DNA from: Mustelus asterias
Lineage: Eukaryota
Direction: 5' to 3'
NCBI RefSeq assembly: GCF_964213995.1
Contig: NC_135809.1
Location: 121,086,001 to 121,150,000 of the forward strand
DNA: 64,000 nucleotides
Numbering within the stretch: position 1 is the stretch's first letter; every line of letters starts with the position of its first letter. The notes beneath the pieces are model-generated. The model saw only the letters and a program-made list of their open reading frames with translations. It had not been told where the DNA came from and ran no database searches. The translations under genes were made by a program, and so were the position numbers. Positions 36,701 through 39,700 of this stretch are shown here, piece after piece.

Positions 36701-39700
36701 GTCAGATCATCTGAAACCTGGGATGTATACCATGCGCCCAGTGCAACCTAAACATGTCAAATGACTCACCCGTCTCTGCAATACAACAAATCTTACCATA
36801 TGGACACTGAAAACAGGGGGAGGCGGTGGCATTGTGATGTTGTCACTGGACTAGCAATCCAAAGACTCAGGGCAAGATCTGGGTTCAAAACCCACCATGG
36901 CAGATGGTGAAATTTGAATTCAATAAAAAGTCTATTATTAAAAATCTAATGATGACCATTATCAACTGCCGTAAAAACCAATCTGGTTCACTAATGCCAT
37001 TCAGGGAAGGAAAACTCCCGTCCTTATCTGGTCTGGCCTACATATGACTCTGGACTCTCAGCATTGTTGTTGTCTCTTAAAAGTGTCCTCAGGCTGGGCA
37101 ATAAATGCTGGCCCAGCCAGCGATGCCCACAACCCATGAATGAATGTTTAAAAATCCACTTGGCACTTCTGACTGAAGTGGTGCTACCAAGCATTCTTGG
37201 TGGTGGACACTGAAATCCCCTACCCAGAGTATATTCTGTGCCCTTACCACCTTAAGAAGTTTAACAACACCAGGTTAAAGTCCAACAGGTTTATTTGGTA
37301 GCAAAAGCCACACCCTTACCACCTCCCAGAGTTCCTGCTTGCCAAAGTTATTAGCCACATCAAGGGTTTCTTTTATCCTATGGTTAAGCCAACGAAGACC
37401 CAGGCCTAAAACTGAATCTAACCATACAGTCTCATACCCAAGAAACATCCAACTTAGAACCCAATGCAAAAATCAATTCCTCTCAATGAGGAAACAAAAA
37501 CAGTATAGCAAAGACCTTCAGTGCAGCATTTTATTTAATGGCTTAAGTTTTTAAAAATGCTGAATAAAAACTTTTTTTTCTCTTCCTTTGCCACTTGTTG
37601 TAAATTGTGTGTACCTGGCTGTCACGTGATGTAAATTGATACAATGTAAAAGTACAGAATACTGAAGTTTAACGGGAGAGGGTTAAAGCTAGCTTCTGTC
37701 ATGCCCAGAACCCCAGAGGTTTACTGCACAGAAAAAGGTCATTCAGCCCATTTCATATGTGCTACAGTGCATAACCTCCTTTTAGAACATTCCTAAAACT
37801 AATCCCAATGCCCTGTGTTCTCTCCATAGACATGTAACTTTCTGCATTCCAAATGCTTCTCTACCATGCTTTAAAAAGATCCATGATGTGGAGATGCCGG
37901 CGTTGGACTGGGGTAAACACAGTAAGAAGTCTCTGAACACCAGGTTAAAGTCCAACAGGTTTATCTGGTAGCACAAGCCACTAGCTTTCGGAGCGCTGTT
38001 CCTTCATCAGGTAAGTGGGAGTTCTGTTCACAAACAGGGCATATAAAGACACAAACTCAATTTACAAAATAATGGTTGGAATGCGAGTCTTTATAGGTAA
38101 TTAAGTCTTAAAGGTACAGACAATGTGAGTGGAGAGAGGGTTATGCCCAGGTTAAAGAGATGTGCATTATCTCCAGCCAGGACAGTTAGTGAGATTTTGC
38201 AAGTCCAGGCAAGTCGTGGGGGTTACAGATAGTGTGACATGAACCCAAGATCCCGGTTGAGGCCGTCCTCATGTGTGCGGAACTTGGCTATCAGTCTCTG
38301 CTCAGCGACTCTGCATTGTCATGTGTCGTGAAGGCCGCCTTGGAGGACGCTTACCCGAAGATCAGAGGCCGAATGCCCGTGACCGCTGAAGTGTTCCCCA
38401 ACAGGAAGAGAACACTGTAAATTGCCTGGTGATTGTCGAGCGGTTTTCATTCATCCGTTGTCGAAGCGTCTGCATGGTCTCCCCAATGTACCATGCCTCA
38501 GGGCATCCTTTCCTGCAGCATATCAGGTAGATGCTATGACAACGGATGAATGAACACCGCTCGACAATCACCAGGCAAGAGAGTTCTCTTCCTGTTGGGG
38601 AACACTTCAGCGGTCACGGGCATTTGGCCTCTGATCTTCGGGTAAGCGTTCTCCAAGGCGGCCTTCACGACACATGACAATGCAGAGTCACTGAGCAGAG
38701 ACTGATAGCCAAGTTCCGCACACATGAGGACGGCCTCAACCGGGATCTTGGGTTCATGTCACACTATCTGTAACCCCCACGACTTGCCTGGGCTTGCAAA
38801 ATCTCACTAACTGTCCTGGCTGGAGACAATACACATCTCTTTAACCTGTGCTTAACCCTCTCTCCACTCACATTGTCTGTACCTTTGAGACTTGATTACC
38901 TGTAGAGACTTGCATTCCAACCATTATTTTGTAAATTGAGTTTGTGTCTTTATATGCCCTGTTTGTGAACAGAACTCCCACTTACCTGATGAAGGAGCAG
39001 CGCTCCGAAAGCTAGTGGCTTGTGCTACCAAATAAACCTGTTGGACTTTAACCTGGTGTTCAGAGACTTCTTACTTAAAAAGATCCAATAGTCTTTGCCT
39101 CAACTATCCCCTGTAATGTGTTTTACACTTCTCATTTGCTTAAGTAACTAGATGAAAGAAAATGGTAAGAAATAACTTTCTTAGCAGTTAACAAACATGC
39201 AAGCTCCAAAAGACATTCAGTATCAATATAAATAATCTGCACTGTTCCTCTTATGATCCTGGACCAGACCCCCAAATTTTTGGTACTTTTTGTTTCAAGG
39301 AGACAAAGTTTGAGATCCAGGGTACTTACTAAGTAAAGCAAAGCAACAGGATTCCATAATTTGTGAACAAATAAAATAATTTTTACTATATAAAATTTGA
39401 AAAATAAAACCATTTACAATATCTATCTTGTACTCCAAAATTCAGAATTAACAGGAGGCAAATGCGAGTTAATAGGTAAACGGTGGTCAAACACACCAGG
39501 CCACACAATAAATGTCACATGCGACCAAGACAGATCCCAAGGATTTCTCAGTAACCCACCCAGACATCACTGATCACACAATCTCATTAAATCTCTGTCT
39601 CCCTTATCAAGGATTGCAGGTCTTTAGCCTTTCCTTTCAAAGATCTATCCTTGGAATTCCCTCAAAATAGCAATGACTCTCTGAATTGCTCACTTCCCAT

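What the first reader, a model, noticed from the sequence alone, without database searches (positions are those of the whole stretch)
37871..39087. Family of fold-back Penelope-like elements with hammerhead motifs in both polarities
Seen: a 1.19-kb near-perfect palindrome (arms about 550 bp, loop about 57 nt holding the GIY-YIG YIGET motif), a 37-nt unpaired tail, a 13-bp TSD and a hammerhead motif near the outer end of each arm. The same architecture recurs at 13379, 33220 and 63180 with fixed outer ends but different turn-round points. Copy-specific variants appear in both arms (tctctgaacacc here, gagtctaacaac at 13379). Across copies the CUGAnGA/GAAA core is mostly kept while N7 (U/C/A), loop II (AGC/AAU) and stem I vary compatibly. 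Known: Penelope-like elements carry minimal hammerheads in their pLTRs and often have inverted pLTRs with a short tail. Inference: the palindromes are made at insertion by template switching or snap-back synthesis, yielding rod-like RNAs with ribozymes in both polarities, reminiscent of retrozymes and viroid-like RNAs. In the PPFIA1 pre-mRNA each ribozyme is masked by its own antisense arm and a long dsRNA forms.
Basis: partly seen in the sequence, partly recalled or inferred. Interest (0 to 1): 0.8.

Follow-up and report, generated by a model that had tools for sequence, protein, structure and literature searches.

The report
Palindromic Penelope insertions recording ribozyme cuts
The palindrome is an ordinary dead insertion of a very abundant Penelope-like jumping gene, but its family shows that both mirror halves are copied from one RNA at landing, and more than a thousand copies begin exactly where the element's tiny hammerhead ribozyme should cut, a likely genomic trace that it cuts in living cells.

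Summary
The palindrome is real: a 13-bp target duplication, a 37-nt tail, arms 96.3% alike, and a minimal hammerhead in each. It consists of two 5'-truncated copies of a Neptune-like Penelope element joined head to head; the 'loop' is just the longer copy's extra 60 nt. This architecture and opposite-strand hammerheads are published, and this scan met them in other genomes. Nothing supports a viroid-like RNA.

The family is what is informative (75,318 exact end matches). Of 47 pairs, 46 have exactly one tailed end, either arm may be longer, and arm lengths are coupled (rho 0.83). This points to priming from both target strands on one RNA, not single-primer snap-back.

In one subfamily, 1,083 arms begin exactly at the predicted hammerhead cut, against 124 four bases upstream. 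All 20 loci checked are true junctions, and no partner arm passes the cut. A second pile-up lies at a start-site-like position. Both are 5' ends of sense RNA, which argues against the published antisense self-priming idea and suggests cleavage in vivo, not found in print in my searches. Cleavage itself, long reads and expression were not tested.

The parts
37871..37883 (.). left target-site duplication (13 bp)
   Evidence: identical to 39075-39087
37884..37920 (-). 37-nt 'tail' beyond the second reverse-transcription start site; only at this end
37921..38531 (-). left arm: 5'-truncated copy, family positions -605 to 0 (0 = last base of the tail-less end)
37978..38014 (-). minimal type I hammerhead of the left arm (one stem II mismatch)
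38472..38528 (-). 'loop' = extra 5' stretch of the longer left copy; encodes the YIG half of the GIY-YIG endonuclease (WYIGETM at 38473-38493)
38529..38531 (.). head-to-head junction, 3 nt shared by both copies
38529..39075 (+). right arm: 5'-truncated tail-less copy, positions -545 to 0; endonuclease remnant ends at stop 38771-38773
38949..38982 (+). TATA-like word about 30 nt ahead of the position (38979, 7 nt before hammerhead C3) where family 5' ends pile up; promoter role inferred
38982..39018 (+). minimal type I hammerhead of the right arm; predicted scissile bond 39014|39015
   Evidence: numbering after PMC4209133
39075..39087 (.). right target-site duplication
37252..37313 (-). solo 62-nt copy of another subfamily, flanked by a 10-bp duplication (37242-37251, 37314-37323), whose 5' end is exactly at the predicted hammerhead cut
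13378..13555 (.). head-to-head copy, tailed left arm, arms 101 and 42 nt, TSD
33219..33540 (.). head-to-head copy, tailed left arm, arms 137 and 148 nt, TSD
63178..64000 (.). head-to-head copy of an older subfamily; the tailed right arm ends 158 nt beyond the window
35771..36031 (-). stop-free frame holding a liprin-alpha exon; the focal element lies in an intron upstream of it

Best explanation
The feature is a dead insertion of an endonuclease-bearing (Neptune-like) Penelope element. The element's protein binds one sense RNA and nicks both strands of the target about 10-18 bp apart (inferred from the TSDs). Each freed 3' end primes reverse transcription: one at the outer start site, giving the tailed arm, and one about 37 nt further 5', giving the tail-less arm. 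The two fixed ends are shown here; two start sites and extension of both strands were shown in vitro for another PLE. Both cDNAs run towards the same RNA 5' end, or stall near the same place, and are joined head to head by a template jump or end-joining with 0-5 nt overlap or short fillers (inferred); second-strand synthesis then completes the palindrome. When synthesis starts in the 5' pLTR, the run-off point is a defined end of the sense RNA: either a start-site-like position 7-8 nt before the hammerhead core, or the hammerhead's scissile bond, which gives mini-palindromes with arms of about 60 nt (pile-ups shown; cause inferred). When it starts in the 3' pLTR, longer arms such as the focal 605/545 nt pair result. 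After insertion the arms mutate almost independently. The two hammerheads of the focal copy are passengers.
For: [quoted passage not shown] In loci not chosen for structure, 94 of 153 arm ends sit in 47 head-to-head pairs, 46 of 47 have exactly one tail, and 38 of 46 have a 10-18 nt TSD against 0 of 46 in a shifted control. Tailed arm longer in 18 pairs, tail-less longer in 20, tie in 8; Spearman 0.83; 30 of 46 within 25 nt against 8.9 expected by permutation; subfamily letters agree between arms (N7 23 of 27, expected 10.6; stem I 3' strand 22 of 27, expected 6.2). Cut-site pile-up: 1,083 matches at the predicted cut against 124 four nt upstream. All 20 inspected loci are true junctions with different fillers, and 0 of 20 partner arms pass the cut. 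12 of 20 control loci are, by eye, a repeated copy of the post-cut start or an internal duplication rather than a clean end. 7 of 153 unselected arms end at offset 0 or +1, across several subfamilies, against 0.53 per nt. Hammerhead make-up in 189 of 353 arm ends: N17 is G in only 3, N7 varies freely, the extra A is present in 187, and stem I pair 1 is C-G in 128 and T-A in 39. Frangieh 2024: both strands cut and extended, two start sites bracketing the tail.
Against: The sequence cannot tell whether the middle is joined by a jump, a fold-back or host end-joining; 1-2 nt overlaps are chance-level. 59 of 153 arm ends had no partner detected. One pair of 47 has two tails, as does L013. 21 pair-unique shared variants remain, including the focal 2-nt change, which has 15 matches genome-wide and was on one arm only in 5 of 5 other pairs with both ends in view; these need a rare source RNA, a copied RT error or occasional conversion. 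In the focal subfamily the cut-site excess is weak: 126 matches of which only 8 of 30 inspected are junctions, against 35, 48 (25 of them one internal deletion) and 8 at neighbouring positions. One control was uninformative. Three of the 7 unselected arms at the cut prompted the test, so one search is not independent. Rfam hammerhead models do not match, and the minimum-energy folds do not form stem I. In vitro, hammerhead cleavage was not needed for insertion, and no RNA-seq ends were seen at the cut.
Confidence: 0.72

Rival explanations
1. Single-primer snap-back: one cDNA folds back on itself and copies its own strand, making the second arm.
For: It explains the coupled arm lengths, small loops, subfamily agreement and pair-unique shared variants. 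At the cut site the longer arm is the tailed one in 17 of 20 loci.
Against: In 20 of 46 pairs the tail-less arm is longer, so the tail must come from a second priming on RNA, and nothing would stop a fold-back copy at the fixed tail-less end. 16 of 46 junctions hold 4-40 nt fillers, some of unrelated sequence (L216, L230). Fold-back may still be how the middle closes once both strands are primed.
Confidence: 0.12
2. Self-priming on an antisense transcript (hypothesis of Arkhipova 2013 for head-to-head PLE structures).
For: It is the published proposal for the same architecture, and near-perfect palindromic junctions are common.
Against: The turn-round points pile up at two 5' ends of the sense RNA: the scissile bond and a position about 30 nt behind a TATA-like word. 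A ribozyme on the sense strand would not set the 3' end of an antisense RNA.
Confidence: 0.05
3. The pile-up at the predicted cut is not cleavage but a second transcription start, a host nuclease site or an RT stall at the hammerhead fold; the rest of the model stands.
For: No cleavage assay was done; the effect is weak in the focal subfamily; minimal hammerheads cleave poorly in vitro; no RNA ends were seen there in Anolis.
Against: The peak is on the first base after N17, falls off 3' of it (678 matches with a stricter pattern one to two nt further in, 13 of 20 inspected true junctions), is low 4 nt upstream where a stall before stem II would be expected, and moves with the motif between subfamilies.
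Confidence: 0.2
4. Functional rod-like, retrozyme- or viroid-like RNA with ribozymes of both polarities, kept symmetric by selection or conversion.
For: The element folds into a rod; both arms share some rare variants; contigs of a run guessed to be RNA hold family sequence.
Against: Arms diverge independently (415 private variants against 21 pair-unique shared ones); arm lengths differ per copy; there are no tandem units as retrozymes have; in the rod both hammerheads are base-paired away; the left one carries a stem II mismatch.
Confidence: 0.03
5. Assembly or library fold-back artefact.
For: The palindrome was not confirmed by long reads of this genome; the best public runs hold at most 66% of the words.
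Against: The arms differ at 20 sites plus an indel, there is a perfect TSD and a one-sided tail, and 38 of 46 pairs have TSDs. Opposite-strand joints also appear in contigs of independent runs.
Confidence: 0.01

Closest known systems
EN+ Penelope-like elements, Neptune clade, with inverted 5'-truncated copy and one-sided 30-40 bp tail (Craig 2021 PMC8557442; Arkhipova 2013 PMC3846280)
   Same: RT then CX2-5CxxC linker then GIY-YIG; head-to-head inverted truncated copy, tail at one end, variable TSD, hammerhead in the pLTR.
   Different: Here the two-arm form without a tandem copy is the commonest state, in roughly 260,000 arms (extrapolated from 43 in 614 kb). The one-tail rule, the length coupling and the pile-ups of 5' ends were not found described.
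Minimal PLE hammerheads (Cervera and de la Pena 2014, PMC4209133)
   Same: Extra nucleotide between 9 and 10.1, G10.1-C11.1, palindromic 15.2-16.2, short stem I, no stem III in the monomer; that paper also notes pairs 100-700 bp apart on opposite strands.
   Different: That paper states there is no in vivo evidence of cleavage; here over a thousand insertion ends lie on the predicted scissile bond.
Anolis Poseidon PAc in vitro (Frangieh 2024, PMC11167929)
   Same: Both target strands are cut and extended; two internal start sites bracket the tail; most RNA is used uncleaved.
   Different: A different clade. The main text does not link the two sites to inverted insertions, and no RNA ends were found at the hammerhead cut.
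L1 twin priming (recalled, not from a call)
   Same: The second target strand primes on the same RNA and gives an inversion.
   Different: In L1 the inverted part is a different stretch of the RNA. Here both primers start 37 nt apart and copy the same stretch, giving a palindrome.
Non-LTR retrozymes (bioRxiv 10.64898/2026.07.22.740005)
   Same: Type I hammerhead related to PLE pLTRs.
   Different: Retrozymes are non-coding tandem units; these copies are inverted, carry endonuclease or RT remnants, and vary in length.

Membership tests
EN+ Penelope-like elements | [quoted passage not shown] | tested here: met
   Longer copies L051-L055 give RT motifs and YLIRC..C..YIG..H..H; RVT_1 E 2.7e-6, below Pfam's cut-off, and no Pfam GIY-YIG hit. 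All copies seen are broken.
EN+ Penelope-like elements | Inverted 5'-truncated copy, one-sided 30-40 bp tail, variable TSD | tested here: met
   46 of 47 pairs with one tail; TSD 10-18 nt in 38 of 46
EN+ Penelope-like elements | Partial tandem (pLTR-ORF-pLTR) full-length source copy | tested here: inconclusive
   The longest arm seen is about 2.7 kb and truncated (L053); no full-length copy among the loci fetched
Neptune clade | CX2-5CxxC motif in the RT-EN linker (absent in Penelope/Poseidon) | tested here: met
   CX4CxxC in several copies; definition; shared with Nematis
Neptune clade | RT phylogeny | not tested
   No reference RT sequences were fetched and no tree was built
Minimal type I hammerhead | CUGAnGA and GAAA boxes, extra nt after 9, G10.1-C11.1, palindromic AGCU, N17 not G, short stem I | tested here: met
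   the 189 of 353 were picked with at most 1 mismatch per box, so core conservation is partly built in, while N17, the extra A and stem pairing are not
Minimal type I hammerhead | Match to Rfam hammerhead models | tested here: not met
   expected for motifs without stem III (inference)
Minimal type I hammerhead | Self-cleavage at N17 | not testable with these tools
   Only the indirect pile-up of 5' ends
Non-LTR retrozymes / viroid-like RNAs | Tandem non-coding units with a hammerhead in each | tested here: not met
   45 of 56 close neighbours are head to head, 7 in the same orientation; coding remnants present
Non-LTR retrozymes / viroid-like RNAs | Circular RNA of unit length | not testable with these tools
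   No raw RNA reads of this organism were offered

The most novel reading that the evidence does not exclude
This genome holds a fossil record of the PLE insertion reaction. A dimeric RT-endonuclease primes both target strands on one sense RNA, at two sites 37 nt apart. In at least one subfamily, roughly one arm in seven was copied from RNA that the minimal hammerhead had already cut. That would be the first in vivo evidence that hammerheads of endonuclease-bearing PLEs cleave, it would settle sense against antisense template, and natural subfamilies would rank hammerhead variants by activity.
Probability: 0.55. Interest if true: 0.72.

Novelty: new member of a known kind. Interest (0 to 1): 0.55.

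Why it matters
Two open questions become testable from sequence alone. The first is how PLEs make their head-to-head insertions with a one-sided tail, which Craig 2021 calls undefined and Arkhipova 2013 ascribes tentatively to antisense self-priming. The second is whether their minimal hammerheads cut in cells, for which Cervera 2014 had no in vivo evidence and Frangieh 2024 found no RNA ends. A family with a quarter of a million arms gives base-resolution maps of template 5' ends. The family also covers about 1.8% of randomly sampled DNA (9,708 of 550,000 bases), much of it as inverted repeats, which makes it a large potential source of intronic double-stranded RNA. The focal copy itself is ordinary.

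Tried and rejected
Rfam scans found no hammerhead; only hairpin-like microRNA models matched the palindromic junctions. The first coordinate reference (the long arm of L053) lacks part of the hammerhead and split the alignments; it was replaced by the L051 arm. The first all-against-all 5'-end mapping ran through partner arms and was discarded, then redone with a filtered library; crashed. A control pattern for the second subfamily used the wrong upstream letters and mostly caught a subfamily variant (257 matches), so it was not used. My first reading of a T before the cut as a non-templated base was dropped: it is that subfamily's own base. Strong gene conversion between arms was rejected as the main force. 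Public runs: none holds the locus whole; the two raw-read runs gave 8 and 0 reads; contigs of X1 and X15 show the family and its two outer ends only, so expression and long-read tests stayed open. A genome-wide count of short palindromes by one gapped pattern was not obtained. Energy folds of monomer and homodimer did not give the hammerhead fold. Nine near-identical loci (L003-L006, L009, L011, L017, L018, L023) were counted once. Literature: nine searches found no paper tying PLE inversions to twin priming or reporting genomic ends at the hammerhead cut. Subscription papers (Arkhipova 2006 and 2017, Evgen'ev 2005, Dalle Nogare 2002, Lunse 2016) were not read and may hold such statements.

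Full report
Observation. The palindrome is in the sequence as described. The inverted repeat is 496 nt at 97% in one block and about 545 nt at 96.3% in all. It is bounded by an identical 13-bp duplication at 37871-37883 and 39075-39087, with a 37-nt extension at the left end only. The window lies in a 3.68-Gb genome, in an intron of a minus-strand liprin-alpha gene (paralogue not tested). A fifth, solo copy lies at 37252-37313.

What it is. In other copies the 'loop' is ordinary element sequence just upstream of where the right arm starts. The feature is therefore two 5'-truncated copies, reaching -605 and -545 from the fixed 3' end and joined with 3 shared bases. Longer copies show an RT followed by a CX4CxxC linker and a GIY-YIG domain (RVT_1 E 2.7e-6). 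By the definition in Craig 2021 (passages read) that linker marks Neptune or Nematis; no tree was built. The family is very large: 75,318 exact matches to a 23-nt end word, 43 arm ends in 614 kb of window plus random DNA, and 1.8% of 550 kb sampled. The architecture is published: an inverted 5'-truncated copy with a 30-40 bp tail at one end (Craig 2021; Arkhipova 2013, passages; Schostak 2008, passages), and pairs of minimal hammerheads 100-700 bp apart on opposite strands (Cervera 2014, parts 1-2 of 4 read). This scan noted like palindromes in other genomes (AI notes, used as leads only).

How the palindrome is made. I pooled the window, 55 random 10-kb stretches and 60 loci taken in order from the first matches on contig C1. 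Of 153 arm ends, 94 lie in 47 head-to-head pairs (24 of 43 in the window and random stretches alone). Of these pairs, 46 have exactly one tail, and 38 of the 46 have a TSD of 10-18 nt against none in a shifted control. The tailed arm is longer in 18 pairs and the tail-less arm in 20, with 8 ties. Lengths are coupled: Spearman 0.83, and 30 of 46 within 25 nt against 8.9 by permutation (15 of 22 within 65 nt against 5.3 among pairs with an arm over 130 nt). Subfamily letters agree between arms far above chance. So both arms come from one template with one 5' end. A single primer folding back cannot give a tail to the shorter arm when the longer has none, so two priming events are needed. Frangieh 2024 (parts 1-2 of 4 read; three supplement files searched without hits and figures not seen) showed for an Anolis PLE that both target strands are cut and extended and that synthesis starts at two sites bracketing the tail. 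Putting the two together gives twin priming; this is my inference, named after the L1 process, which I recall from memory. Junctions show 1-5 nt overlap in 21 of 46, none in 3, fillers of 4-40 nt in 16 and larger irregularities in 6; this does not separate a template jump from host end-joining.

After insertion. Over 24 pairs and 8,196 columns there are 415 variants private to one arm and 191 shared, of which only 21 are unique to the pair; arm-to-arm identity beats the best other copy in 8 of 24. The focal 2-nt variant has 15 exact matches genome-wide. Ten of the 13 other places were inspected, and in the 5 with both ends of a pair in view it was on one arm only. Its presence on both focal arms needs a rare source RNA, a copied error or a conversion; this is unresolved.

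The hammerhead. Rfam models do not match, and energy folds give stem II at most. The motif nevertheless has all four features listed by Cervera 2014. Among 189 of 353 arm ends that hold it, N7 varies freely, N17 is G in only 3, the extra A is present in 187, and the first stem I pair switches between C-G (128) and T-A (39).

A trace of cleavage. A few short copies began right at the predicted cut, so I counted genome-wide with patterns of four non-family letters followed by 20 family letters. In the focal subfamily the excess is modest: 126 matches at the cut, with 8 of 30 inspected being true junctions, against 35, 48 (25 of them one internal deletion) and 8 at positions +1, +2 and -2. In a young subfamily with two extra bases after the core, the predicted cut gave 1,083 matches, four bases upstream 124, and one to two bases downstream 678 with a stricter pattern, 13 of 20 inspected true. 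One control was mis-designed. Twenty cut-site loci taken in list order were all true junctions, each with its own filler. The partner arm stopped 0-11 nt short of the cut in 19, was much shorter in one, and passed it in none; the arm reaching the cut was tailed in 17. By eye, 12 of 20 control loci were a repeated copy of the post-cut start or an internal duplication. In the unselected set, 7 of 153 arms end at offset 0 or +1 against 0.53 per base, in subfamilies whose cut lies at different distances from the 3' end; three of these prompted the test. In that young subfamily, 2 of 15 unselected arms end at the cut, roughly one in seven. A second pile-up lies 7-8 nt before C3 (10 of 153 arms; 17 within 6-13 nt), about 30 nt behind a TATA-like word. 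Both are best read as 5' ends of sense RNA, reached when synthesis starts in the 5' pLTR. That speaks against self-priming on an antisense template, the hypothesis of Arkhipova 2013, and for occasional cleavage in the germ line. Against this: cleavage was not assayed, a start site or nuclease site on the same base is not excluded, and the base just before the cut was not counted.

The rod-like RNA. The element folds into a rod at -1072 kcal/mol on the host strand, which any such palindrome would. No public run holds the locus whole, and laying four runs showed only family-level contigs. Retrozymes are tandem non-coding units (bioRxiv 2026, part 1 of 5 and passages read, supplements closed); these copies are not. 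I give this reading 3%.

Novelty. The focal element is a new member of a known kind. What may be new is the family-scale evidence. Nine literature searches found no report of PLE insertion ends at the hammerhead cut, nor of twin priming for PLEs. The review PMC6765202 (passages) treats in vivo cleavage as conjecture. Lunse 2016 was not available, and subscription papers were not searched. An earlier scan note saw two such ends in a fungus (looked up after my counts). Interest 0.55: ordinary as an object, useful as a test bed for two open questions.

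Noticed in passing
window 38980-38988 (minus strand) and 38008-38016 (plus strand): The antisense strand of hammerhead stem I reads as a consensus splice donor (CAG|GTRAGT) in both common variants, so every head-to-head pair places one on either strand of a host intron.
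   Followed up: no
L214, L215, L222, L224, L228, L235, L246: Junction fillers are often short repeats of the last bases copied, as from repeated re-priming; L216 and L230 instead hold about 50-60 nt of unrelated sequence.
   Followed up: partly
L007:2139-2163, L010:1184-1210, L197, L202, L209: Some apparent solos have a partner that is only the first 5-25 nt of the tail, so the share of paired insertions is probably underestimated.
   Followed up: partly
L003-L006, L009, L011, L017, L018, L023: Nine loci on different contigs are 98.5-100% identical over 3.5 kb, including flanks: a recent multi-copy duplication or larger mobile unit carrying one PLE copy.
   Followed up: no
L054:3780-4124 and 6739-7084: A 345-nt repeat is inserted into the tailed arm of a long pair, with a second copy nearby.
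   Followed up: no
window 46424-46880: GC-rich tandem repeat with stop-free frames on the minus strand.
   Followed up: no
window 35110-35502, 35771-36034, 43654-43923 (minus strand): Frames that read like liprin-alpha exons; only the second was checked.
   Followed up: partly
runs X1-X14: At least five differently coded organisms hold 57-66% of the words, so the family is shared by related species with little divergence.
   Followed up: no
L013, L123:2786-3983: Two pairs carry a tail at both ends, exceptions to the one-tail rule.
   Followed up: no
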